The notes under the pieces were generated by a model, which saw only the letters and a list, made by a program, of their open reading frames with translations, ran no database searches and was not told where the DNA came from. The translations under genes and the position numbers were made by a program. Positions 39,281-55,547 of a stretch of 64,000 bases of DNA are shown piece by piece; within the stretch, counting starts at the first letter, position 1; each line of letters starts with the position of its first letter. The stretch spans positions 1,184,577-1,248,576 of the forward strand of contig OY969559.1 in assembly GCA_963701075.1 (NCBI GenBank). Reading direction: 5' to 3'. The DNA is from an uncultured Nitrososphaerota archaeon. Lineage in GTDB: Archaea; Thermoproteota; Nitrososphaeria; Nitrososphaerales; Nitrosopumilaceae.

Positions 39281-40453
39281 TCATACTGCCGCTTGTCTTT
39301 TTTCAATAGGTACGTACTCGCAACCTGAGGGCCCACAATATTTTCCTACGTACACTGCCTTTGGTCTGTAAAGCATGGGCTTTGGCTGGGCTTCGGCAAA
39401 TTTTTCTTCAATGATGTGTGCGGTCCATCCAGCAGCTCTGGAAATCGCAAAGATTGGAGTGTTAAGATCCATGGGTATGCCTAGCATGTAGTATGTTGAT
39501 GCACTGTACAGGTCTACATTTGGAAAAATGTCTGACCCCTTTACCTTTTTCATTTCTTCTTCTGTCACGTCCTCTACTTTCTTTGTTATTCTGTACCAGG
39601 GCTGTCCTGTCTTCTCTGACAGTCTGCGAGAAAGTTCTCTCAAGACTTCGGCTCTAGGATCAAATGTCTTATACACTGCATGACCCATTCCCATTATCCT
39701 TTCGCCTTTTGCAAGTTTTTCTTTTATCTTGGACTCTGCTCTATCTTCGGTTTGAATATCTAAAAGCATCTTCATGACTTGAAAGTTTGCTCCTCCGTGA
39801 AGCTCCCCACTGAGTGCCCCTATCGCAGCACCGACTGCGGCATACATGTGAGCCCGAGTTGAGGCCACTTCTCTTGCAGCAAAGGTAGATGCGTTAAAAC
39901 TGTGTTCAGCATGTAAAATCAAACATATATCAAAAATTCTTGCAACCTCTGGATCTGGCTCCTTTCCAGTCAGCATGTAGAGAAAATTTCCTGCATGACC
40001 TAACTTCTTTGAAGGCCTAACAACGTCTTTGTCATTTCTAATTCTATCCCAATATGCTATGATTATTGGAATCTTTGAGATTAGATCTATTGCCCTGTTA
40101 TAATTGGCCTTATGGTCGTCTCCTTTTTCCTTGTCATAGACGGCTAATTCTGATATGCGGGACTGGATGACATCCATCGGGTTGGCTGTCTTGGGAAGAT
40201 TTTTTAGATTTTTCTCAATGTTTTCTGGTATCTCTCTTGTTTCAACCAATTTGCTTGCAAATTCATCTAAAGTCTTATCCGTTGGAAGGTCATCATTGAG
40301 GAGTAGACAGGCCGTTTCCTCAAAATTGGATTTTTTTACCAGGTCTAAAATGTCATATCCTCTATAGATTAGTTTTCCATTGATGCCATCTATTGCACAA
40401 ATTTTTGTATCTGCAACTTCGATATTTCGAAGTCCTATGTTCTTTGTTTCCAC
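39281..40453 (-). CDS. Citrate synthase
   Basis: 390 aa; GHAVYKTFDPRA and catalytic His/Asp context typical of type I citrate synthases. Confidence 0.9.
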   Translation of the reverse strand: METKNIGLRNIEVADTKICAIDGINGKLIYRGYDILDLVKKSNFEETACLLLNDDLPTDKTLDEFASKLVETREIPENIEKNLKNLPKTANPMDVIQSRISELAVYDKEKGDDHKANYNRAIDLISKIPIIIAYWDRIRNDKDVVRPSKKLGHAGNFLYMLTGKEPDPEVARIFDICLILHAEHSFNASTFAAREVASTRAHMYAAVGAAIGALSGELHGGANFQVMKMLLDIQTEDRAESKIKEKLAKGERIMGMGHAVYKTFDPRAEVLRELSRRLSEKTGQPWYRITKKVEDVTEEEMKKVKGSDIFPNVDLYSASTYYMLGIPMDLNTPIFAISRAAGWTAHIIEEKFAEAQPKPMLYRPKAVYVGKYCGPSGCEYVPIEKRQAAV

Positions 40454-40850: not shown

Positions 40851-41226
40851 ATCAATTATTGAAATCGCGTCGTTTTTGATTTAAATCGAGTATTAAAATG
40901 CGTCTATTTTGATTTTCTAAAGGATTTCACAACATTTTCCAGACTGCTTCTTAACATCATCATTCCATCATTGTTATTGGCATAGGGGGGAAAAATCGCA
41001 GATGTCTTAAATCAAATCGAGAGCAGACCTTCAAGCAGATCTGAAAAAAGCGTCGAGCACGATCAGAGAAGCAATTGATGACATGATGGATAGCACTTCA
41101 CCAAGACAAATGGGAAGTAAGTGTAGACAAAGAATTACAAGATTCAGATTGGAAGCGAAATGTAGAATCGTGATCATTATGAAAATCTAATGAAATTTAA
41201 TACCTAATTATTGATTCATAAATAGA

Positions 41227-44082
41227 TTATTCCACATTAATTATACCGATTTTCCACGGATGAACTTGGCAAAAGTAGTAATATGTTCCAGATTCCGAAA
41301 AGACTTGGGTGAATCGTTTCTCAGGAGAAATCAGACTGCTGTCAAAATATGTACCGGTTCTTGAATCTGACGGCTTGCCACTAGTTATAGTATGCTCTAC
41401 TGTATCTTCGTTAATCCATGTGACTGAATCGCCCTTCCTTACTGAAATCATATCAGGCACAAAAAATTGAGGGTTATCTGGTCTACTTGAACCCGCACAT
41501 ATCATAATATCATGACTCAAGGTCGGTCTGGCCACGCCAGCATCGACTTCGCTATTTTCATCTTCTTGATTTTTTTCATCTGACTTCCCAACTCGTATTT
41601 TAAATCTCAAGGGTCGTGAAAGAGCATGCGGGTCATCAATACTCTCCCATGCAAATAACTCAACGTTAAATTCCCCAGTACTTTCCGGAGTCCATTGTAA
41701 GAGGGCTTTGACGGATTGTTTTGGCAATATGGAAGAAGAAACATGTGAAAGATGCATGACTGTTCCAGATTGGTTTGTTATCTGCATTAAAAAGACAAAA
41801 GATTCCTTTTTTTCCTGCATGTTTGTAACCTTTGCCCCAATGAATATTTTTTGTCCTGTTTTGATTTGTTCTAGGATCTTGTTATTTTTATCAATTATAA
41901 TTGGATCGGTCAATGTAAAACGTTGTAGTGGTGGTGTAATTTTTCCGATGAAAGACGTTGCGCTCATCATGATTTCACTTGAGTATGTAAATGGAGTCGG
42001 TAGAGTTCTGTCCACATATAGAACATGAATTTTATCACCGTCCTTTACTTTTAATTTATTTACATCAGAAGACTCAGCGACCAATTTAACCGCCCCCCGA
42101 AATATTCCAGTATCATTCCCTGTTTCTACAACACTTACCATGATTCCATCTTTGTGTGAATCGGACCATACTTTCAAATCAAACTTATCAACTGAATCAG
42201 GATCAAGATTCATGTCTGGATCAATGATCTGAATTTCTGCCACATCCCCTATGGAATAAGATGCCTGAGTCCATCTTACAGTTCCTATATTCCAACGAAT
42301 TATTGCAGATGCCTGAATTTCCATGCCTTTTGCATATTCGTATGTGACAGTTATGGAATCATCATTGGTGCATGGAATAAACCCATCAGTTGGACCAGTA
42401 CCACCAATTTTACCACTTGGATTCAATCCGTTTCCGTCAACTCCTTTCTGATCTTTGATTGATGGATCTCCTGTAAGAACCACATATCCAGTAAAAATCC
42501 CAGTGTTCGTTCCTGTTTCCTCTAATCTATACCGAATTTTGTGATTTTTAGTGGAAATAGAAATTTTGCCTGACCACTCATCTCCTATGATATCTTTAGC
42601 GTTAGGATCTACATTTGCGTCTGGCGCCACTACAGTAATGTGGACTTTGTCTGTCCAAGTGTACACTTTCTGGCTTAGTTGTATGGTTGCGCCAAAATGT
42701 GAGAGATAGAATTTGCATTCAGTAGTTTGTCCTCCGTATTCTGCCATCATCTTATATTCGGCATTTGGTTTACGACTCCAGTCTTTTCCACCGATAAGAA
42801 TAGATTCTTGATAGATGCTATTCCAATCATCTTGTACCGGAATTGTATTTTTATAAACTAATTTTCCATCTGGTCCAAATATCTCCAGATTTATTGGAAT
42901 GTTACTTATCACGTTAGGATTTACAACTGTTGCAATCAACTTACGCCCATAAAGATAAACCATTTTGTCGGTTTGAAGTGTGATGGGAAGCGGTTTAGAT
43001 ACATATACACTACTTCTAGAACTTTTACCGTTATATTCTGCAATTAACTGATAATGAGCGTCCTCTTTCAACTTGTCTCCAGATACGGTCAATTTGGTTA
43101 GTTGCTCTATTCCTTCTACTGGAATTTTTGTTTGATAGACTATACCTCCTTCAGGATTAAGAATTTTCAAAACTACTAGATCCGAAGAAGTTGGTTTTAA
43201 TCTTGTTCGTATGACTAGTGGCCCCCCAAATGTTACTCTAGTCTTGTTTGGTTTTACATCTATGCCATTTGGTAACGAGGCTATGGATTTGTATAATGAA
43301 ATTTCTTTGAGAAATTCCAACATCATATCTGTTGGTGTCTTTTTATCAGATTTTAGCTGGATTACGTTAAGATTCATCTCTTCGAATTTTTTAATCGTCT
43401 GATCGTCAGGGTTTAACAAAACGATGTACCCTTTTGGGGCAAACTCTTTTGCGGTATCTTCGATTGTTTTTCTCACTTGTTGAAAGTTCGGATCTGAAAG
43501 ACTGTAACCGAGAAATAAAGGAGTTTTTGTTTCCAGATATGCAGATAATTGAGTTACTATAGTTTTGTATTTTTCCATGTACTCGTCATAATCATTTTTT
43601 GTCATTACCAGATATTCAGGGCTTTCAACATCGCCATGCATTTTAATGATATTTACAGTTGGTGGTCTTGCCAACATTACAACTTGTATCGGACCTGCTA
43701 GAGATTTAGCTGTGATGCCAACTTCTCTGTATGCTTGTTCTAGTAGAGTATCGAAATTTGTTGTAAATACAATTTTGAAATCAGAAATCTTTGCAAATTC
43801 ACGATGCACTTCTCCCGCCTTTACGATATTTGTTAGTAAAATTCTCTCTATTTCTTGTACCAGTCTCTTCCTACCGAACTTGTTCGCATATGCTTGGGTT
43901 ATTTCCAAATTGTCTGATAACTCCGTAGTACCTAAATCCTTAGCTAGTTCATCACATAGTTCAGACCATGAAGGCATTTTTGTCCCATTGGGAAGGTCTG
44001 CATTTTTTGAGAACCCTGCTCCCACAAAAGGTAGACAATTACCATTCGCCATATCTTCGAGTAGTTCTCTTGGTACTAACAC
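41227..44082 (-). CDS. SIR2_2-type (DHS-like NAD-binding) N-terminal domain fused to beta-rich repeat region and C-terminal cupredoxin domain
   Basis: 951 aa; LPFVGAGFS and KMHGDVESPEYLVMTKNDYDEY (SIR2_2 hallmarks); C-terminus SVTWINEDTVEHTITSG...YYYFCQVHPWKIGIINVE (type-1 copper fold ligand pattern H/C/H). Confidence 0.55.
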   Translation of the reverse strand: MLVPRELLEDMANGNCLPFVGAGFSKNADLPNGTKMPSWSELCDELAKDLGTTELSDNLEITQAYANKFGRKRLVQEIERILLTNIVKAGEVHREFAKISDFKIVFTTNFDTLLEQAYREVGITAKSLAGPIQVVMLARPPTVNIIKMHGDVESPEYLVMTKNDYDEYMEKYKTIVTQLSAYLETKTPLFLGYSLSDPNFQQVRKTIEDTAKEFAPKGYIVLLNPDDQTIKKFEEMNLNVIQLKSDKKTPTDMMLEFLKEISLYKSIASLPNGIDVKPNKTRVTFGGPLVIRTRLKPTSSDLVVLKILNPEGGIVYQTKIPVEGIEQLTKLTVSGDKLKEDAHYQLIAEYNGKSSRSSVYVSKPLPITLQTDKMVYLYGRKLIATVVNPNVISNIPINLEIFGPDGKLVYKNTIPVQDDWNSIYQESILIGGKDWSRKPNAEYKMMAEYGGQTTECKFYLSHFGATIQLSQKVYTWTDKVHITVVAPDANVDPNAKDIIGDEWSGKISISTKNHKIRYRLEETGTNTGIFTGYVVLTGDPSIKDQKGVDGNGLNPSGKIGGTGPTDGFIPCTNDDSITVTYEYAKGMEIQASAIIRWNIGTVRWTQASYSIGDVAEIQIIDPDMNLDPDSVDKFDLKVWSDSHKDGIMVSVVETGNDTGIFRGAVKLVAESSDVNKLKVKDGDKIHVLYVDRTLPTPFTYSSEIMMSATSFIGKITPPLQRFTLTDPIIIDKNNKILEQIKTGQKIFIGAKVTNMQEKKESFVFLMQITNQSGTVMHLSHVSSSILPKQSVKALLQWTPESTGEFNVELFAWESIDDPHALSRPLRFKIRVGKSDEKNQEDENSEVDAGVARPTLSHDIMICAGSSRPDNPQFFVPDMISVRKGDSVTWINEDTVEHTITSGKPSDSRTGTYFDSSLISPEKRFTQVFSESGTYYYFCQVHPWKIGIINVE

Positions 44083-44188: not shown

Positions 44189-44218
44189 GTGTAGACAATG
44201 TAGACAAATAATGTCTAC
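44189..44218. repeat. 30-bp copy of GTGTAGACAATGTAGACAAATAATGTCTAC abutting the ATPase stop codon (direct repeat of 45393-45422)
   Basis: 29/30 identical to 45393-45422, same orientation. Confidence 0.8.
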
Positions 44219-45411
44219 TAGGTAAACTTTCGCAGGATATACTTCTTTAACAGAGGAACTGAAAAACGGTAAACACCGCGTTTATAGTTATAAATCAGAC
44301 CTTTATCCTCAAGTCTTTTCATGTATTTTGATAAGGTAGTTCGTTCTATCCTGGCTTTTTTCTTGATAAAATCAAATGGAATGTCCATATCCTTTGCATG
44401 TGCCATGGCAATGATGACCTTTTGTTCTTCATCACTTAACGCATCCATTCGCGGATCAAAAAAGTCGTCGTCAAGCTGTTTTGTAATTGAAGGACTGAAT
44501 CGTTCATAATCATTTAAGAGAATCTTCTTTTTTCCGCTCATATTGATTAGTTCTTTACAGTAAAACTGGATAAAATATGGATATTGGCCAGTCTCAACAA
44601 CAATTCTTTCAATAAGTGGCTTTTCGAATTGGAATTCACTTCTATCTAATGGGGTGACAATTGCGGAAGTTGCTTCCTCCCTGTTTAGGTTTCCCACCTC
44701 CATGGATTTGTACATGCGTTCAGAATATGATCTCACTTCTTTTACATTGAGATGGAGGTTTGGCAGACCACAAAACACTGCAAAATATTTGCAATGTTTC
44801 TTTTGCACTTCGTTTAACACCCCGATAAAATCAGAAAGGACAAACCACTTTTTGTATTCTATATCATACACCGAATGAAATTCATCAAACAGGAAGATGA
44901 CGCCTTTGTAATTGCCATTTTCAAAGACCTTCCAATTCGCTAGCAGGTATTCCTTTAGATGATCTTCAAATGGGATCCCAGAAGTTGTGTTGTAAGACGG
45001 TTCATAATAAAAAACATCTGGAATTCCAACTTCTTTTGGTCTAATATATGACAAAACAGAAGTGAACTTGTCCTTCATCCTCTTAACTCTGGAAAATGTA
45101 CGTATTGCAGTTTTTATATCATATTTTAATGCCTTGGTAAATTCGTCTGGGTCGCAATATTTCTTACTAAACTGTGACCTTTTAACAGGAAGAAAACCGT
45201 GACTTATGCAGGATTTACTAAATTCATCCATGAGTACAGTTTTTCCAGTTCCTCGTAAACCATACACTATCAAATTCTCAATTTGACCTTCCTTTATACG
45301 ATTTAGCATTTGTGCAAATTTTTCCAAATGCTTTTCTCGTCCTGCAAGATAAGGCGGTGGAACTCCTGAACCTGGATTAAATGGATTATTTGGTGTAGAC
45401 AATGTAGACAA
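44218..45411 (-). CDS. Archaeal AAA ATPase (Arch_ATPase-like P-loop) with C-terminal winged-helix (DUF234-like)
   Basis: 397 aa; PPPYLAGREKHLEKF lead-in, Walker A GLRGTGKT, Walker B IFLFDEFH; non-ATG (TTG) start inside the palindrome. Confidence 0.7.
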   Translation of the reverse strand: MSTLSTPNNPFNPGSGVPPPYLAGREKHLEKFAQMLNRIKEGQIENLIVYGLRGTGKTVLMDEFSKSCISHGFLPVKRSQFSKKYCDPDEFTKALKYDIKTAIRTFSRVKRMKDKFTSVLSYIRPKEVGIPDVFYYEPSYNTTSGIPFEDHLKEYLLANWKVFENGNYKGVIFLFDEFHSVYDIEYKKWFVLSDFIGVLNEVQKKHCKYFAVFCGLPNLHLNVKEVRSYSERMYKSMEVGNLNREEATSAIVTPLDRSEFQFEKPLIERIVVETGQYPYFIQFYCKELINMSGKKKILLNDYERFSPSITKQLDDDFFDPRMDALSDEEQKVIIAMAHAKDMDIPFDFIKKKARIERTTLSKYMKRLEDKGLIYNYKRGVYRFSVPLLKKYILRKFT

Positions 45412-45432
45412 ATTATGTCTACATTGTCTACA
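45393..45432. promoter_or_regulatory. Imperfect palindrome GTAGACAATGTAGACA-AATTA-TGTCTACATTGTCTAC spanning the ATPase start codon; candidate operator
   Basis: 16-bp arms exactly inverted around a 5-bp spacer, read directly. Confidence 0.5.
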
Positions 45433-45746
45433 TTATAAAGAATTTCATTGAAAATATTAGATCAGTTTTATGCACCATGATCAAACAATATTTCCGACCC
45501 TTTTGTAACTGCATTATAGATTTTCCAGACTTGTTGGCTAGGTAGGTCATTATTCATTGCTCCAAGATCTTGTCTTCCATCCAGAAGCCGCGAACTTCAC
45601 ACTCCAGGAATGATATGTATGCTGTTCTGATAGCATTAATTTCTTCAGCCATGCTATGAAAATATGGTAGAGAATGTTAAACTTTCATAGCCAAATTCAG
45701 ACGGTACAGTATCTTCACCTTCATTCTAATCCGCATTAATTAGGTT

Positions 45747-47201
45747 CTATATGCTACTAGTTCTGGCCGTATCGTGATCTCTAGCGAAGTTCCTCACATG
45801 CCTTATCTTGATTATGAATTCTTTAAGATTATCACTTGAAAATGGTAGTTCAGATAGAAAACAGGCTTCTGCTAGAGCCATCATTTGATGCGTGAGATAT
45901 ACTAACTGCTGAGTATCCGTTATAACTCCGTCGGAAAATTCAAGTCCATGAGCGTTATAGTGTCTTGTCTTAGAAACATTTACGGTAAAATCATGTTTCT
46001 CTTTTGCTGCATCATTAAAGGCATCCGGGCACATATCCACAAGTTTTTGAAGTCTTTCTGCGAGATTAGGCCAATTACCCATGCTTTTGAATTGCTTTAT
46101 GTAATTGATTTGGTTTTGAGCACCAACGCATTTTGATTTCATATTTTGAATCATTTTTTCATAGTCTTCGTCAGACATTTTCTTATCACTGGGAAATTTC
46201 TTCCTATGATATGCTTCTAGTACTTGCACTACACGTTGGAACTTGATTTCGAGTGTGATGGATCCTTCGTCTAGGAGAGTTGTAAAATAATCTATAAGTA
46301 AATCACGACAAACTATCCAGAATTTTCTCCAAGTTTGTACGTATGACTGAAAGTTTTGAGATAGTAAAGGATAATGAAATAACATATCACGTGATAAAGA
46401 TCTTTCAGGCACGTAATCGTGCAGGCGGATACTTGGAAATACACTGACACTAGTGTTATCCTGATCTGCTGTTTTGGCCCGTATGCTAATAGGATATACG
46501 TTTTTCATCATAGATAACATCAAAAAATGTCTAAAACATGTTTGAATGTCCCAGAAATCCTTTAGCTTATGAGGTGTTTGACTTTTAATCATTAAAGATG
46601 TTGTTTGGGTGATTTTTCTTTCTTCTGAGTATATTGAGAATCCAGTTGATGCACCATGTACGATTTCTAGTTCAAACTCCTCGTCAATCTTTGCCTTTAT
46701 TGAGGGAGGTTGTTGGTATTCTAACTTAATTTTTTTATCAATAGATTCAGAACGATCAGTTTTGAATGAAGATTGTGCTACCCATAGGTGTAGATTTGAC
46801 CAATCTACAGAGACACTCTTGAATTCTATTTCTTCTAGAGTATCAAAATGTTTTCCTACAAACATTGACATGGCCCTAAATTTGCAAGTGACGATTCCAT
46901 TTGATGCAGTATGAAGTCCAGTCTGAGCACAATCAACCAGTGTTATTATACGGTCATCTGTAGTTAATCCTAAAATAATCGGCTTCTCTTCAGGTCCTTC
47001 CTCAAACTTTTTGATTATGGAGAAAACATCTGCATCGGTTGCAGCAAATGAACCAATGGTGGTAAGCGATATGCCGTTATTATCATATTCCATAGTACCA
47101 GAGAGTTTTCTTTCTTTTGATTCGGGCAGAAACCAGATTCCAACGGATTGAAATTTATCATATAGTGATAAAGATTGATTTTCTTCGGTCATGTCCCGCA
47201 T
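45747..47201 (-). CDS. HEPN-motif protein, ApeA-like architecture (large N-terminal domain + C-terminal Rx4H)
   Basis: 484 aa; KTRHYNAHG near C-terminus fits the HEPN Rx4-6H motif; size and domain order as in Apea-type abortive-infection proteins. Confidence 0.35.
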   Translation of the reverse strand: MRDMTEENQSLSLYDKFQSVGIWFLPESKERKLSGTMEYDNNGISLTTIGSFAATDADVFSIIKKFEEGPEEKPIILGLTTDDRIITLVDCAQTGLHTASNGIVTCKFRAMSMFVGKHFDTLEEIEFKSVSVDWSNLHLWVAQSSFKTDRSESIDKKIKLEYQQPPSIKAKIDEEFELEIVHGASTGFSIYSEERKITQTTSLMIKSQTPHKLKDFWDIQTCFRHFLMLSMMKNVYPISIRAKTADQDNTSVSVFPSIRLHDYVPERSLSRDMLFHYPLLSQNFQSYVQTWRKFWIVCRDLLIDYFTTLLDEGSITLEIKFQRVVQVLEAYHRKKFPSDKKMSDEDYEKMIQNMKSKCVGAQNQINYIKQFKSMGNWPNLAERLQKLVDMCPDAFNDAAKEKHDFTVNVSKTRHYNAHGLEFSDGVITDTQQLVYLTHQMMALAEACFLSELPFSSDNLKEFIIKIRHVRNFARDHDTARTSSI

Positions 47202-48194: not shown

Positions 48195-49283
48195 TTATTG
48201 TAATCTAGGATCACTACATACAGGGAAATAAGAAGGATAAGTCTTTTCCAACCAGCTGCCGCAGTCTTGTTTTACGATGTTTATTGCATTGATACAAGTA
48301 GTGGAATTAGAAATTGCGCTATTGATACAATCGTTTAGAATGATTTGAAACTGGCTGTTAATTTTGTCCAATGCTGTTGCGTTAATTGGTGTTTGACTAG
48401 GTGTATTGAGGGGGTAGGTTGGATTTGTAGATTGACCCATGTTTGCTATTTGTTGTAGTCTTGGATCGCTACAAGCCGTAATGCCTGGAGTGGTCTGGCA
48501 TAGGCTTATCATGTTTTTGGCATCTGTAACACAAACTTGAATTGTATTACTATTCTGTGTGGTCAAGCATTCATTGATGAAGGATTCCATTGTTTGACTT
48601 GTAGTATCATTTTGGTTTGCTGGTTCTGTAATCTGTTCATTCATTATCTGAGCTATTCGTGGGTCACTACATGCGGGAACTGCATTTGCACCCAATGAGT
48701 TACAAGTTTGTTGGATTTGCGTCATTTCTGTTTTGCATGTTGACAGATTGCTTGTATCATTAACTAGTGAACATGTATTTATCATCGTTAACGTGGCATT
48801 GTTAAGATTTGATGACGATGATGATATCATGTTTTGTGCATATGAGATTTTACTGTCAACCGTAGCTAAAAACTGGTCAATTCTAGGATCACTACATACT
48901 GACATTGAAGAATATTGAGAATCCTGACATTTGTTTTTTATATCCGTAATACCAGATTTGCACGTTGTTAAATCCCCTACTGATTGGTCTGTCTCACAAA
49001 CGTTAAGCAAATTCACACTGTCGGTATTTAGTCGGCTTGTATCCTGCTGAATCAGACTGTTTGTTGCTTGCTGGCTTTGAAGTTGGGCTGGCAGGACAAT
49101 TGCAATAAGCGCAATACCAAAAATTAGGCTTGCAATACCAATTATGATTTTACCAAATGCGCCCACGAAACGCTCTTCATTATAAATGATATAAGATTTA
49201 TCTTGGTAAACTTGGTATTCATGGCTATGTATATTCTTGATTATCTTATTTATCTTGATGAATGGCAAAGATACTTGGCGCAA
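48195..49283 (-). CDS. Membrane-anchored repeat protein with four approximately 60-aa Cys-containing modules each ending in CSDPR(I/L)
   Basis: 362 aa; VCSDPRIDQ, ACSDPRIAQ, ACSDPRLQQ, VCSDPRLQ; N-terminal TM IIIGIASLIFGIALIAIVL. Confidence 0.45.
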   Translation of the reverse strand: MRQVSLPFIKINKIIKNIHSHEYQVYQDKSYIIYNEERFVGAFGKIIIGIASLIFGIALIAIVLPAQLQSQQATNSLIQQDTSRLNTDSVNLLNVCETDQSVGDLTTCKSGITDIKNKCQDSQYSSMSVCSDPRIDQFLATVDSKISYAQNMISSSSSNLNNATLTMINTCSLVNDTSNLSTCKTEMTQIQQTCNSLGANAVPACSDPRIAQIMNEQITEPANQNDTTSQTMESFINECLTTQNSNTIQVCVTDAKNMISLCQTTPGITACSDPRLQQIANMGQSTNPTYPLNTPSQTPINATALDKINSQFQIILNDCINSAISNSTTCINAINIVKQDCGSWLEKTYPSYFPVCSDPRLQ

Positions 49284-49411
49284 GCAAGATAACTGTAAGA
49301 TACCAGGTCACAATTCCTGAGGATGTAAGGAAACAAATGAAAATAGAAGTTGGTCAGACTTTGGTATTTGTAGAAGATAATGGCAAGATAGTTCTCAAGA
49401 CAGATTTGTAA
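49262..49411 (+). CDS. AbrB/SpoVT (MazE-like) swapped-hairpin small DNA-binding protein, 49 aa (not in ORF track)
   Basis: MAKILGASKITVRYQVTIPEDVRKQMKIEVGQTLVFVEDNGKIVLKTDL matches the looped-hinge-helix pattern of AbrB/MazE antitoxins. Confidence 0.45.
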   Translation: MAKILGASKITVRYQVTIPEDVRKQMKIEVGQTLVFVEDNGKIVLKTDL

Positions 49412-53414: not shown

Positions 53415-54521
53415 TCAATCAGCTTGTTTCTGCCTTTGGATTTCATCTTCTAGATTCTCCTTTTCTGATAACTTGATTTCCAATTCTCTATTTTGAACAA
53501 GTAACCTTTCGGAGTCATCCACAATCAAATCCTTTATGGCCTTTTGAAACTCGGCAAAACATTGTTCTTCTGTAGGCACAAAATAGGTTCCATCAAGCCC
53601 ATTTTTGTGACCCATAAGCTTCTCGGCAATATTTGAATTGATTTCCTTGTTTGCCTTGAGGATTGTGTTGAATCTCTTCCTAAATCCGTGACAGAGTTGG
53701 ATATTGTATCTCGACCCGTTTTTCTCTCTGGCAAGGCCCGATTTTCTCATTAGTCGCTTGAGAACGTCCACATGACCCCTATACCTCATGGCATGCGCTA
53801 ATGTTGCCCTTGTATCATATTTGTCTCTGAATAGTGGGGATTCCAGAGTGAGCATCTCGCCATCATTACGCCTTTTTTCTAGGTAGGAATCAAGCGCCTT
53901 GGCTGCCTCTGGCGACAAGAATGTTATGTATTCTTCTTTGGTGCTTTCGTAAATGACTACTCGCTTACATCCGTCTGGCATGTTTTTCAGATGTTTTATC
54001 TTCAAGCCTTCCAGTGCGCCCACTCTGACTCCGGTAGAAGCCAAAAATAGGATTATTGCCCTATTTCTGAGATCTGTGGTTACCTTCAACAACAATTGAA
54101 CATGTCTGGTATCGTATGCGCTGTATCCTGATCTTTTGATGGTTTCTGGAAACAATTTTTTGACTTTCTTGAAGTTTAGAACCCTATCATTCATGGAAAA
54201 GAATAGCTGAAGGCTGGTAAGCATGACTGGAAATGAGTTTGGATTGAGATCTTGCGTCTTGAGAAATATGATATAGTCTTCTAGCAACTTTTGGAGCTTC
54301 ATGTCTGGAATACCAGCTAATTTGTCATAATCGCTAATTTCTACAAAATCCATGAATTTTTTCAAAGTGATTCTGTAATTTCTTCGAGTATACTCTGATC
54401 TTATGGCACTCTCAAAGACTCGAAGACTCCGATTATCATTTTTTACTAGTTTTTGCGGCAATTGTTTCTTTTTTGAATTCTCTTGCTTATAGGAACTAAT
54501 TCGAATAGGTGCGTTTTCCAT
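53415..54521 (-). CDS. Tyrosine site-specific recombinase / integrase
   Basis: 368 aa; ASTGVRVGAL (Arg box), LCHGFRKRF (HxxR), LMGHKN...DGTYF (catalytic Tyr region). Confidence 0.8.
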   Translation of the reverse strand: MENAPIRISSYKQENSKKKQLPQKLVKNDNRSLRVFESAIRSEYTRRNYRITLKKFMDFVEISDYDKLAGIPDMKLQKLLEDYIIFLKTQDLNPNSFPVMLTSLQLFFSMNDRVLNFKKVKKLFPETIKRSGYSAYDTRHVQLLLKVTTDLRNRAIILFLASTGVRVGALEGLKIKHLKNMPDGCKRVVIYESTKEEYITFLSPEAAKALDSYLEKRRNDGEMLTLESPLFRDKYDTRATLAHAMRYRGHVDVLKRLMRKSGLAREKNGSRYNIQLCHGFRKRFNTILKANKEINSNIAEKLMGHKNGLDGTYFVPTEEQCFAEFQKAIKDLIVDDSERLLVQNRELEIKLSEKENLEDEIQRQKQAD

Positions 54522-54565
54522 ACCTTTTTTGATTTAAATGAGGGTGGTTCTGACCTGTTAATTCT

Positions 54566-54994
54566 ATGGCAAGAACCAAAGTTGTTTGTATTTCTCACAA
54601 AGAAGATGCTGATGGGATAGGTGCCGCATCGCTAATCAGGCAAGCTTTTGGTGGAGATACCCGGCTTGTTGATTATCCTGGTCTTATGATCGAGCTTGAA
54701 CAATTACGTAATGATGAGTCACTAAAAACGGTATACATATGCGATTTGGGTCTTAGTAAAACAAACCAAGATCAATTCGTTGAACTCCTAAAGGCATTAA
54801 GGAAAAAACGCGTCTCAGTGACATACATTGATCACCATGATCTAGAAGACAACATAAAGAAAAAAATCAAGTCTTTAAAAGTCAAATTGATTCACACAGT
54901 AAATGAATGTACGACAGTTCAAGTCTATAACGCATTCAAGTCAAGGCTAAACGATCACAGACTCTCTAATTGCTGCCTGTTCTGCAGTCACTGA
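54566..54994 (+). CDS. DHH-family phosphoesterase (NrnA-like), N-terminal DHH fragment
   Basis: CISHKEDADGIGAAS and DHHD motifs; ORF ends prematurely. Confidence 0.55.
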   Translation: MARTKVVCISHKEDADGIGAASLIRQAFGGDTRLVDYPGLMIELEQLRNDESLKTVYICDLGLSKTNQDQFVELLKALRKKRVSVTYIDHHDLEDNIKKKIKSLKVKLIHTVNECTTVQVYNAFKSRLNDHRLSNCCLFCSH

Positions 54995-54998
54995 TTAC

Positions 54999-55547
54999 AT
55001 GGAGGATAGGCCTCTGGGCTCTAAGCTGCTTCAAAGGTTTGACAGGCAATTTATCTTACTTGAGGCAACAGTTCTTACCTTTACTATTGTTAGTCATCAA
55101 AAAGATAATGATTATTTGTTATATCTTGTAGATGAGCTAAGCCAATTAAAATATCCGCATGATATTCCAAATACTTTCGAGTTTGCACGCATACAAGCAG
55201 AAAGAATCTCAGGAGTAATTCAAAAGGTAAAAGATAACATGAAGAAAATAAAGAACCTGGCTTACATGGAAGTTACAGATTCTGGTGCAAGCATGGTAGT
55301 TAATTTTGTCTTGGGTATGTCAGGAAAAGATGTTGGGGTGTCATACAAATTCAGAGAAGAAAAAGGGATTTACGCCGTTTCTATTCGTGGTTCAAGATCA
55401 TGCAAATTGCATCTGGGTCGAATCGTCAACCAGTTGGCAACCGAGCTTGGAGGTTCAGGTGGAGGCCATGACAAGGCATGCGGTGCGGTTATACCAAAAG
55501 AAAAAATTTCTCAATTTATAAAAAAATTTAATTCCAAACTTAACTGA
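54999..55547 (+). CDS. DHH-family phosphoesterase (NrnA-like), DHHA1 fragment (GGGH)
   Basis: GGSGGGHDKACGA; frame continues upstream (..SLIAACSAVTDYMEDR) indicating a frameshift splits one ~320-aa gene. Confidence 0.55.
   Translation: MEDRPLGSKLLQRFDRQFILLEATVLTFTIVSHQKDNDYLLYLVDELSQLKYPHDIPNTFEFARIQAERISGVIQKVKDNMKKIKNLAYMEVTDSGASMVVNFVLGMSGKDVGVSYKFREEKGIYAVSIRGSRSCKLHLGRIVNQLATELGGSGGGHDKACGAVIPKEKISQFIKKFNSKLN

What the first reader, a model, noticed from the sequence alone, without database searches (positions are those of the whole stretch)
44189..45432. A single ATPase gene bracketed by 30-bp direct repeats of a palindromic motif
GTGTAGACAATGTAGACAAATAATGTCTAC (44189-44218) and GTGTAGACAATGTAGACAAATTATGTCTAC (45393-45422) are 29/30 identical and in the same orientation. 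They sit exactly at the stop codon and across the (TTG) start codon of the archaeal AAA ATPase gene. The upstream copy extends into a 37-bp imperfect palindrome with 16-bp arms. The downstream copy also lies ~105 bp upstream of the SIR2-fusion gene start. I see three possible readings. (a) It is an operator for the wHTH carried by the ATPase itself, autoregulating the ATPase and co-regulating the SIR2 gene. (b) It is the att-like duplication of a one-gene cassette insertion. (c) It is a remnant of a tandem duplication. Initiation would have to occur inside the palindrome from a non-ATG codon.
Basis: seen in the sequence. Interest (0 to 1): 0.75.

Follow-up and report, generated by a model that had tools for sequence, protein, structure and literature searches.

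The report
ATPase gene bracketed by own boxes
An uncharacterised DNA-binding ATPase gene of an ammonia-oxidising archaeon is bracketed, right at its start and stop codons, by two copies of a repeated-box DNA site that stays almost unchanged in distant relatives, so the boxes are most likely the protein's own binding sites and a portable self-control unit.

Summary
Each repeat is one copy of a 39-nt composite site: four GTAGACA boxes, two direct and two inverted, at a 9-bp period around a 5-nt spacer.

One copy lies between a TATA-like box and the start codon of a 397-aa AAA_16 ATPase with a C-terminal wHTH. This protein has an Orc1/Cdc6-like fold and comes from a Nitrosotalea MAG. The other copy straddles its stop codon.

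Six lineages (59-100% protein identity), each with different neighbouring genes, carry both sites. Boxes are 93-94% identical, while four-fold sites are 42% and spacers 41-51%. Homology between loci stops at the outer edges of the sites.

More distant relatives carry different boxes that change together with the wHTH recognition helix.

Best reading: the boxes are the ATPase's own binding sites. The upstream site is an autorepression operator. The downstream site is a second, selected site (loop or roadblock, or an iteron-like cis site).

Not supported: an att-like cassette duplication, a tandem-duplication remnant, a hairpin element, or conserved co-regulation of SIR2.

No binding or transcription data exist. 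This is a new variant of a known kind, of moderate to high interest.

The parts
45433..45439 (-). TATA-like box (TTTATAA on the gene strand) directly 5' of the upstream site. The promoter role is inferred.
   Evidence: One search gives the sequence. An equivalent TTATAA / TTAAA / TTTATAT abuts the site in all six lineages. Homology between loci begins here, about 6 nt 5' of the site.
45394..45432 (-). Upstream 39-nt composite site. On the gene strand it reads TGTAGACA-A-TGTAGACA-TAATT-TGTCTACA-T-TGTCTACA, a perfect palindrome. It holds the annotated TTG start (45411-45409) and a second TTG (45402-45400). It is the putative autorepression operator.
   Evidence: (I4). It is conserved in L005, L168, L169, L170 and L176, where ATG follows the last box. 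Boxes 2-4 are 93% identical across lineages.
44218..45411 (-). ATPase gene, 397 aa as annotated. It encodes a P-loop AAA_16 domain, a helical lid and a C-terminal winged helix-turn-helix, with an Orc1/Cdc6-like overall fold.
   Evidence: Pfam AAA_16 scores 43.3 bits against a cut-off of 32.6, with a sub-threshold MarR hit at residues 344-376. The AF2 model has pLDDT 87.3. Best Foldseek matches are 2qby_A, 1w5t, 2qen, 2fna and 2v1u. Walker A and B residues are invariant in 53 homologues.
44190..44228 (-). Downstream 39-nt site across the stop codon. Boxes 2-4 (44190-44219) are intact. Box 1 (44221-44228, coding) is degenerate. The stop TAG (44220-44218) overlaps box 2 and is followed in frame by the TAG inside GTAGACA.
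   Evidence: All six lineages have it 1200-1204 nt from the upstream site. Boxes 2-4 are 94% identical across lineages while the spacer is 41%. In this window it does not fold into a long hairpin (-5.4 kcal/mol, z -1.7).

Best explanation
The two repeats are two copies of one composite binding site. Each is made of GTAGACA boxes at a 9-bp period, two direct and two inverted, around a non-conserved 5-nt spacer. The site is most likely bound by the winged helix-turn-helix of the ATPase encoded between the copies.

Upstream site: it fills the whole space between a TATA-like box and the start codon. Bound protein would therefore cover the transcription start region and shut off its own promoter (negative autoregulation).

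Downstream site: it straddles the stop codon and is conserved just as strongly. It most likely cooperates with the upstream site. Either ATP-dependent oligomers bridge the two sites and loop out the 1.2-kb gene, or bound protein acts as a roadblock at the 3' end.

Together, TATA box, site, gene and site form a self-contained 1.25-kb unit that keeps its own control wherever it lands in integrated elements and defence islands.

Shown: the anatomy, the conservation, the homology boundaries, the fold, and that the box sequence and the recognition helix change together.

Inferred: that the ATPase binds the boxes, where transcription starts, repression, and looping or roadblock.
For: 1. Six lineages (59-100% protein identity), each with different neighbouring genes, carry both sites 1200-1204 nt apart. 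ATG abuts the last upstream box, and the TAG inside GTAGACA serves as the stop or follows it in frame.
2. Selection: four-fold sites are 42% identical on average, as low as 25%. Boxes 2-4 are 93% (upstream) and 94% (downstream) identical. Spacers are 51% and 41%.
3. Changes in the boxes are one-sided, never compensatory. Sequence is selected, not pairing. The downstream copy in the window does not fold.
4. Homology between loci starts at the TATA-like box and ends at the outer edge of the downstream site.
5. Box and protein change together:
   - GTAGACA goes with helix LSKY(M/L).
   - GGAGACA at both ends of L173, and downstream only in L174, goes with (A/V)SRSL.
   - TTGTAGA in L171 goes with LSTY.
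   - AGTTGTCAA in L010 goes with IQTH.
6. Of 12 distinct Nitrososphaeria loci, 11 have boxes at about a 9-bp period within about 110 nt after the stop.
7. 40 of 149 bacterial relatives have CTAAATTTAG boxes within 150 nt upstream of the gene, 14 of them as pairs exactly 18 bp apart. Only 7 such boxes occur in the other 1.03 Mb.
8. The fold is that of Orc1/Cdc6-type AAA+ proteins with a DNA-binding winged helix. An Orc1 paralogue that acts as a transcription regulator is known (Orc1-2, PMC6061795, PMC9738581).
Against: - There is no binding, transcript or start-site data. The start site is placed only by the usual archaeal TATA-to-start distance.
- The link between box sequence and recognition helix rests on about five independent contrasts.
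- L171, L174, L010 and L008 have boxes only downstream. The downstream site may therefore be the primary, ancestral one, and an operator model does not explain that by itself.
- A regulator whose only detectable sites (in 64 kb) flank its own gene must do something else as well, and that function is unknown.
- In this window the ATG is replaced by CCA. The annotated TTG start may lie at or before the predicted transcript start.
- All loci come from MAGs or metagenome contigs.
Confidence: 0.6

Rival explanations
1. The boxes are cis-acting maintenance sites (iteron-like or ORB-like), and the ATPase is the replication initiator or copy-control protein of an integrated plasmid-like element. Autorepression through the inverted boxes would be a by-product, as in iteron plasmids.
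For: - The fold is Orc1/Cdc6-like.
- Sites lie on both sides of the gene, as in P1 incC-repA-incA (own knowledge). RctB also combines a promoter site with handcuffing sites (PMC6090056).
- L010 has a 340-bp direct array (period 100, 3.4 copies) right after the stop. L171 has two triple-box sites.
- The downstream site is the most widely kept feature.
- No other copies occur in the 64-kb window.
- The window gene lies in a putative 13.7-kb element with a tyrosine integrase.
- In L005/L006 the unit sits next to a ParM-like gene and an integrase-like gene.
- For many thaumarchaeal integrated elements no replication protein is known (PMC6563490).
Against: - The protein is not a member of the Orc1/Cdc6 family by sequence (TIGR02928: 24 bits against a cut-off of 181).
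- No AT-rich unwinding element stands out beside the sites.
- Clade members have only 3-4 boxes per site.
- Bacterial relatives lie in accessory regions of plasmids that have their own replicons and in prophages.
- L174 lies among housekeeping genes.
Confidence: 0.2
2. In this genome the downstream site is an operator through which the ATPase controls the neighbouring SIR2 defence gene (second half of the first reader's reading (a)).
For: The site lies 106 nt upstream of the SIR2_2 start, on the same strand. Both genes sit in a defence-rich island with ApeA. A roadblock at the site could limit read-through into SIR2.
Against: - The same downstream site is present where the next gene is unrelated or convergent (L005, L169, L170, L176).
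- No neighbour is conserved across 175 loci.
- SIR2 homologues at 77% (L297) and 55% (L298) identity have no ATPase and no GTAGACA box. L297 holds only 95 nt upstream, and a different ORF ends there.
- Conserved sequence upstream of SIR2 starts about 45 nt before the start codon, well away from the site.
Confidence: 0.1
3. The repeats are the ends of a mobile one-gene cassette. They would be att-like recombination sites, integron-type attC sites, or terminal inverted repeats of a non-autonomous transposon.
For: - The unit occurs next to different genes in each of six lineages, and homology ends exactly at the outer edges of the sites.
- The outermost 17 nt of the unit form inverted repeats.
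- L168 and L005 show the unit intact while a shared neighbour sits on the other side and strand.
- Integrase genes lie nearby in two of these contexts.
Against: - The spacer, the would-be crossover region, is not conserved and differs between the two sites of a locus. Examples: TTATT and AAAAA in L005, AATCA and TAATT in L170.
- There is no target-site duplication.
- There is no GTTRRRY core, and no foldable downstream hairpin in the window.
- The unit has its own TATA-like box, and it encodes no transposase or recombinase domain.
- Copies differ by 12-40% in DNA, so none is a recent transposition.
- No extra copies occur in the 64-kb window.
- No empty site could be examined.
Confidence: 0.05
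4. The repeats are structural hairpins (terminator or RNA stem-loops), or a decaying remnant of a tandem duplication in which the downstream copy was the promoter region of a lost second gene copy.
For: The upstream copy is a perfect 17-bp hairpin. The two copies are in direct orientation, as a duplication would leave them.
Against: - There are no compensatory changes. The one-sided changes break pairing, leaving 10-17 of 17 pairs.
- The downstream copy in the window folds no better than shuffled sequence (z -1.7).
- The boxes are 94% identical while neutral sites are saturated, so the downstream copy is under selection, not decay.
- There is no TATA-like box in front of the downstream copy.
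- Rfam gives no real match.
Confidence: 0.03

Closest known systems
Archaeal Orc1/Cdc6 proteins with ORB boxes, and the non-initiator paralogue Orc1-2 (a transcription regulator)
   Same: Both have the AAA+, lid and C-terminal winged-helix architecture, and the best structural matches are 2qby, 1w5t and 2v1u. Both have short repeated boxes in direct and inverted orientation next to the protein's own gene. Orc1-2 shows that this fold can act as a sequence-specific transcription regulator (PMC6061795, PMC9738581).
   Different: This protein scores far below the Orc1/Cdc6 family threshold. Its boxes bracket the gene itself rather than an AT-rich unwinding region. It occurs in variable accessory contexts and also in bacteria, plasmids and prophages.
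Iteron-type replicons (P1 incC-repA-incA, F ori2-repE-incC, Vibrio RctB)
   Same: The gene is flanked on both sides by repeated binding sites for its own product. Inverted repeats overlap the promoter for autorepression. Distant sites are bridged by the protein (handcuffing). The P1 and F layouts are from my own knowledge; RctB is from PMC6090056.
   Different: Those Rep proteins are winged-helix proteins without a P-loop ATPase domain. Their iteron arrays are longer and sit next to an AT-rich region and host-factor sites. Replication is not shown here, and most sites here have only 3-4 boxes.
Archaeal autoregulated wHTH repressors whose operator overlaps or follows the TATA box (Lrp, MarR and TrmB-type regulators such as LrpA, Lrs14, MDR1; own knowledge)
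   Same: The operator is a palindrome placed between the TATA box and the start of the regulator's own gene, and the reader domain is a winged helix.
   Different: The site has four boxes at a 9-bp period. A second, equally conserved site lies across the stop codon.
PF01637-type 'archaeal ATPases' (PABY2304, 2qen; SSO1545, 2fna) and STAND-type regulators with AAA_16 (MalT-like)
   Same: These give the closest overall geometry (TM 0.53-0.59). MalT-like proteins also bind repeated boxes as ATP-dependent oligomers (own knowledge).
   Different: The PF01637 score is below threshold (20.5 against 33.2). There is no sensor or effector domain. No function or DNA motif is known for 2qen or 2fna.

Membership tests
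Pfam AAA_16 (PF13191) P-loop ATPases | Match to the family profile at or above the gathering score | tested here: met
   43.3 bits against a cut-off of 32.6. The Walker A GLRGTGKT and Walker B DEF motifs are invariant in 53 homologues.
Orc1/Cdc6 replication initiators | Match to the family model at the curated cut-off (TIGR02928 / NF001625) | tested here: not met
   24.2 bits against 181.3, and 17.6 against 501, over the P-loop region only. The PDB profile search gives 2qby_A at E 0.004 over 57 residues.
Orc1/Cdc6 replication initiators | AAA+ domain, lid and C-terminal winged-helix fold | tested here: met
   AF2 model pLDDT 87.3, pTM 0.83. Foldseek top hits are 2qby_A (E 1.6e-10), 1w5t and 2v1u, with TM about 0.5.
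Orc1/Cdc6 replication initiators | Repeated ORB boxes flanking an AT-rich unwinding element next to the gene, and origin activity | tested here: inconclusive
   Repeated boxes are present. No distinct AT-rich element was identified. Origin activity cannot be tested with these tools.
Pfam ATPase_2 (PF01637, 'archaeal ATPase') | Match at or above the gathering score | tested here: not met
   20.5 bits against 33.2. Structurally it is similar to 2qen and 2fna.
Integron gene cassette / attC | Foldable imperfect palindrome with R''/R' core sites (GTTRRRY) at the 3' end of a promoterless ORF | tested here: not met
   No GTTRRRY core in the sites. The downstream copy does not fold. The unit has its own TATA-like box.
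Site-specific recombination (att) duplication | Identical crossover core in the two directly repeated sites | tested here: not met
   Spacers differ between the two sites in all six lineages and are 41-51% identical across lineages.
TIR transposon / MITE | Terminal inverted repeats | tested here: met
   The outer 17 nt of the unit are inverted repeats, but this follows from each site being a palindrome.
TIR transposon / MITE | Target-site duplication, a transposase, and several near-identical copies | tested here: not met
   The flanks show no duplication. No transposase domain was found. There is a single copy in 64 kb. Units differ by 12-40% between loci. Whole genomes were not available.
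Autoregulated archaeal wHTH repressor | Palindromic operator between the TATA box and the start of its own gene | tested here: met
   A TATA-like box abuts the site and the start codon abuts or lies within it in six lineages. The promoter role is inferred from position.
Autoregulated archaeal wHTH repressor | Demonstrated binding and repression | not testable with these tools
   Indirect support only: selection on the boxes, and box sequence changing with the recognition helix.
Known anti-phage systems (PADLOC, NCBIfam defence models) | Match of the ATPase to a defence-system model | tested here: not met
   Only weak partial hits at E 1e-3 or worse (SoFic, CasR, Csa3, AbiEi wHTH parts; PDC-S01 and S27 P-loop). 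DS41_1 scores 17.6 bits against 370.

The most novel reading that the evidence does not exclude
The 1.25-kb unit is a minimal cis/trans maintenance module of thaumarchaeal integrated elements. In this reading a new family of Orc1/Cdc6-fold initiator or copy-control proteins has ORB/iteron-like boxes that bracket its own gene. The same boxes would serve as origin or handcuffing sites and as the autorepression operator. The array in L010 would be an expanded version.
Probability: 0.2. Interest if true: 0.8.

Novelty: new variant of a known kind. Interest (0 to 1): 0.6.

Why it matters
The ATPase belongs to a large, uniform family with no known function. It has 867 clusters at E<=1e-10, almost all stand-alone proteins of about 390 aa, found in archaea, bacteria, plasmids and prophages.

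The bracketing boxes give the first concrete, testable prediction for this family. They specify a DNA motif for each clade, a likely recognition helix, and a self-control architecture in which the binding site supplies the stop codon and abuts the start codon.

If the downstream site turns out to be an origin-like or handcuffing site, it would point to a replication or copy-control module for thaumarchaeal mobile elements, for which none is known. If it is purely regulatory, it is a compact example of a gene that carries its own control with it into defence islands.

Tried and rejected
- **Motif scan of IMG/VR** (TGTAGACANTGTAGACA): 120 stretches matched. None had the palindrome or an ATPase homologue, so these are chance hits.
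- **Profile scans of genome and metagenome collections:** these were swamped by bacterial relatives at 26-34% identity and gave only three Nitrosopumilaceae loci. Closer relatives had to be fetched one by one, which used all 12 look-ups.
- **Shared words between the upstream and downstream flanks across 123 loci:** no enrichment over controls outside the thaumarchaeal clade (16 against 8-11 loci with a shared word of 10 nt or more). Bracketing on both sides is therefore clade-specific.
- **Conserved-neighbour clustering over 175 loci:** no partner gene found.
- **The '433-aa neighbours' of L170, L171 and L173:** unrelated to each other.
- **Exact look-up of the SIR2 protein from its ATG start:** not on record.
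- **Empty-site test:** not achieved. L297 stops 95 nt upstream of SIR2, just short of where the site would be.
- **Rfam:** only sub-threshold noise.
- **Literature searches** for the family, PF01637 or COG1672: nothing on function or flanking repeats.
- **The 5.9-kb 'Bacteriophage sp.' record with a homologue:** an unannotated high-GC fragment, uninformative.
- **Sigma-70 promoter and terminator scan:** not used, because the organism is an archaeon.
Full report
**Observation**

The 16-mer GTAGACAATGTAGACA occurs exactly three times in the 64-kb window, all at this locus. TGTAGACA occurs 10 times against 1.9 expected, six of them here.

All genes of the neighbourhood are on the minus strand:
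- ApeA/HEPN, 45747-47201
- the ATPase, 44218-45411
- a 951-aa SIR2_2 fusion, 41227-44082
- citrate synthase, 39281-40453

The window matches a Nitrosotalea sp. MAG, GCA_049279315.1. NCBI calls the same 397-aa ATPase with the TTG start.

**Anatomy of the site**

Read on the gene strand, the upstream copy is TGTAGACA-A-TGTAGACA-TAATT-TGTCTACA-T-TGTCTACA (45432 down to 45394). That is four 8-nt boxes at a 9-bp period, two direct and two inverted, around a 5-nt spacer. It is a perfect 17+5+17 palindrome (I4).

A TATA-like TTTATAA (45439-45433) touches its 5' edge.

The downstream copy (44228 down to 44190) keeps boxes 2-4. Its box 1, which is coding, is degenerate. The stop codon overlaps box 2 and is followed in frame by the TAG inside GTAGACA.

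**The protein**

- Pfam places it in AAA_16 (43.3 bits). Hits to nSTAND1, nSTAND6, ATPase_2, BrxC/D and TniB are sub-threshold. A MarR-like wHTH hit covers residues 344-376.
- PADLOC and NCBIfam give nothing above threshold. Orc1/Cdc6 models score 24 bits against a cut-off of 181.
- An AF2 model built on 53 homologues is confident (pLDDT 87.3, pTM 0.83). Its best PDB matches are Orc1/Cdc6 bound to origin DNA (2qby_A, 2v1u), A. pernix ORC2 (1w5t), and the uncharacterised archaeal ATPases 2qen and 2fna.
- So the fold is Orc1/Cdc6-like (AAA+ domain, lid, winged helix), but family membership is not met.
- A conserved but low-confidence loop (residues about 115-147, SYLKPK..FYYEPSY) sits between strands 2 and 3 of the ATPase core.

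**Family and genomic context**

- The family has 867 clusters at 50% identity with E<=1e-10, almost all stand-alone proteins of about 390 aa.
- It occurs in bacteria, in accessory regions of 98 PLSDB plasmids and on 41 IMG/VR contigs.
- No neighbouring gene is conserved across 175 loci.

**Comparative evidence**

I fetched contigs for homologues at 59-82% identity. Five further lineages (L005-7, L168, L169, L170, L176), each with different neighbouring genes, carry the same site twice:
- once directly before an ATG;
- once across the stop codon, where the TAG of GTAGACA is the stop.

The two sites are 1200-1204 nt apart in every lineage. Pairwise BLASTN shows that homology starts about 6 nt 5' of the upstream site, at the TATA-like box. 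It ends at the outer edge of the downstream site.

| Measure across lineages | Mean identity |
|---|---|
| Four-fold degenerate sites (saturated; as low as 25%) | 0.42 |
| Boxes 2-4, upstream site | 0.93 |
| Boxes 2-4, downstream site | 0.94 |
| Spacer, upstream site | 0.51 |
| Spacer, downstream site | 0.41 |

Changes within the boxes are one-sided and break pairing. None is compensatory. The downstream copy in the window folds no better than shuffled sequence. Selection therefore acts on box sequence in both sites, not on a hairpin and not on a crossover core.

**Box and recognition helix change together**

| Locus or clade | Box | Where | Recognition helix |
|---|---|---|---|
| Window, L005, L168, L169, L170, L176 | GTAGACA | both ends | ..LSKY(M/L).. 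|
| L173, L174 (56-57% identity) | GGAGACA | both ends in L173; downstream only in L174 | (A/V)SRSL |
| L171 | TCTACAAAATCTACGAAAATTGTAGA, twice | downstream | LSTY |
| L008 | AAGTCTACA, two full copies plus a third partial | about 110 nt after the stop | LSSH |
| L010 | AGTTGTCAA doublets in a 340-bp array (period 100, 3.4 copies) | directly after the stop | IQTH, with a different wing |

Of 12 distinct Nitrososphaeria loci, 11 have boxes at about a 9-bp period just after the stop.

In bacteria, 40 of 149 loci have a CTAAATTTAG box within 150 nt upstream, 14 of them as pairs exactly 18 bp apart. Only 7 such boxes occur in the remaining 1.03 Mb. Outside the thaumarchaeal clade, bracketing on both sides is not enriched.

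(a) A site for the ATPase's own wHTH is the reading that fits all of the above. Co-regulation of SIR2 is not conserved:
- The downstream site is present where the next gene is unrelated or convergent.
- SIR2 homologues at 77% and 55% identity have neither the ATPase nor the motif in the DNA available.
- Sequence conserved upstream of SIR2 starts only about 45 nt before its start.

(b) An att-like duplication would need identical cores, but the spacers differ within every locus. There is no target-site duplication and no attC core, and the unit carries its own TATA-like box.

(c) A duplication remnant would have decayed to the level of the four-fold sites.

The start inside the palindrome is peculiar to this lineage. 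Relatives have ATG right after box 4, where the window has CCA. With the usual archaeal TATA-to-start distance (established knowledge, about 26 nt from the TATA centre), transcription would begin in box 3. In that case the second TTG (45402) may be the real start. This is inference.

**Context in the window**

A tyrosine integrase lies at 53415-54521. It is 43% identical to the integrase next to the SIR2 homologue in L298. A 14-nt direct repeat, TTTTTGATTTAAAT, lies at 40873 and 54526. This suggests, weakly, a 13.7-kb integrated element carrying a MazE-like gene, ApeA, the ATPase and SIR2.

In L005/L006 the unit lies next to a ParM-like gene and an integrase-like gene. The MazE region is also shared with the window at 83% nucleotide identity.

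**Mechanism**

Most likely (about 0.6): the boxes are the protein's own binding sites.
- The upstream site occupies the whole interval between TATA box and start codon and would block promoter use, giving autorepression.
- The downstream site, equally selected, would either be bridged to the upstream site by ATP-dependent oligomers or act as a roadblock at the 3' end.
- The result is a portable, self-limited expression unit.

Main rival (about 0.2): the boxes are iteron- or ORB-like cis sites of an initiator or copy-control protein. This fits the fold, the downstream-first pattern, the L010 array and the mobile-element context. It fits poorly with the bacterial plasmid and prophage contexts.

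Binding, the transcription start, repression, looping and replication are all untested.

**Comparison with known systems, and verdict**

It works like an autoregulated archaeal wHTH repressor, and like iteron-type Rep systems in having sites on both sides of the gene. It looks like Orc1/Cdc6 and Orc1-2. It is a member only of AAA_16.

I found no description of this family's function or of the bracketing sites.

I rate it a new variant of a known kind, interest 0.6.

Caveats: all loci come from MAGs or metagenomes, the link between box and recognition helix rests on few contrasts, and no empty site could be examined.

Noticed in passing
window 53415-54521 (integrase, minus strand); 40873-40886 and 54526-54539 (14-nt direct repeat); 54566-55547: A tyrosine integrase (Phage_integrase, E 9e-11) sits next to a DHH gene called as two ORFs (DHH 54566-54994, DHHA1 54999-55547). 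A 14-nt direct repeat, TTTTTGATTTAAAT, lies beside the integrase and beside citrate synthase. This may mark a 13.7-kb integrated element carrying a MazE-like gene, ApeA, the ATPase and SIR2. The repeat is short and AT-rich, so it could be chance.
   Followed up: partly
window 41227-44082 (minus strand): This is a 951-aa protein with an N-terminal SIR2_2 domain (ThsA / Dsr2-like hits). Its C-terminal part hits S-layer-like (SlaA-like, Kustd1514) and cupredoxin/plastocyanin models, an unusual architecture. Homologues are found in Nitrososphaeria. In L298 the homologue also lies near an integrase that is 43% identical to the window's.
   Followed up: partly
window 41121-41130: A single box, GTGTAGACAA, lies about 100 nt beyond the SIR2 stop codon. 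It is identical to the first 10 nt of the 30-mer. About 0.1-0.2 such matches are expected by chance in 64 kb. The 77% SIR2 homologue locus has no such box. Unexplained; possibly a relic of a further site.
   Followed up: partly
window 45391-45393 and 45400-45411: The ATG that starts the gene in five related lineages is CCA here. Only two in-frame TTG codons inside the operator remain as starts. The gene is otherwise under purifying selection (80% amino-acid identity against 59% at four-fold sites, compared with L005). Expression of this copy may be weak, or may start at TTG 45402.
   Followed up: partly
L010 5170-5509: This is an iteron-like array directly after the stop codon of a 38%-identical paralogue in a Nitrosopumilaceae MAG. 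It has a 100-bp period, 3.4 copies and 92% matches, and each unit carries two AGTTGTCAAAGTTGTCAAA doublets, all in the same orientation.
   Followed up: partly
L014, L025, L111 and others, 22-55 nt upstream of the gene: Bacterial relatives (27-31% identity) from several phyla share a palindromic box, CTAAATTTAG, often as a pair exactly 18 bp apart just upstream of the ribosome-binding site. 40 of 149 loci have it, against 7 boxes in the other 1.03 Mb. L053 has a different motif (CCGATAAA) on both sides of the gene. L020 has a box right after the stop codon.
   Followed up: partly
L005 3627-3660; L005 5079-5121 and L168 36-78: Two other repeated palindromes lie near the ATPase unit in related loci. 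TTGTAAAGTTTACAAG occurs twice between the ParM-like operon and the ATPase, and may be a centromere-like site. TTACGCCNTTTGGCGTAA repeats lie near a 114-aa gene. That gene sits on opposite sides and strands of the ATPase unit in L005 and L168.
   Followed up: no
window 49190-49410 (= L001 2002-2222) and L005 10653-10874: A MazE/AbrB-type antitoxin region is 83% identical in DNA between the window's island and the otherwise different L005 element. The two islands therefore share at least two small modules, this one and the ATPase unit.
   Followed up: no
window 45747-47201 (minus strand): This is a full-length ApeA-type HEPN gene (ApeA_NTD1 E 1e-45, HEPN_Apea E 9e-21; PADLOC PDC-S58). It lies 315 nt upstream of the ATPase unit, so the neighbourhood is a defence island.
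   Followed up: no
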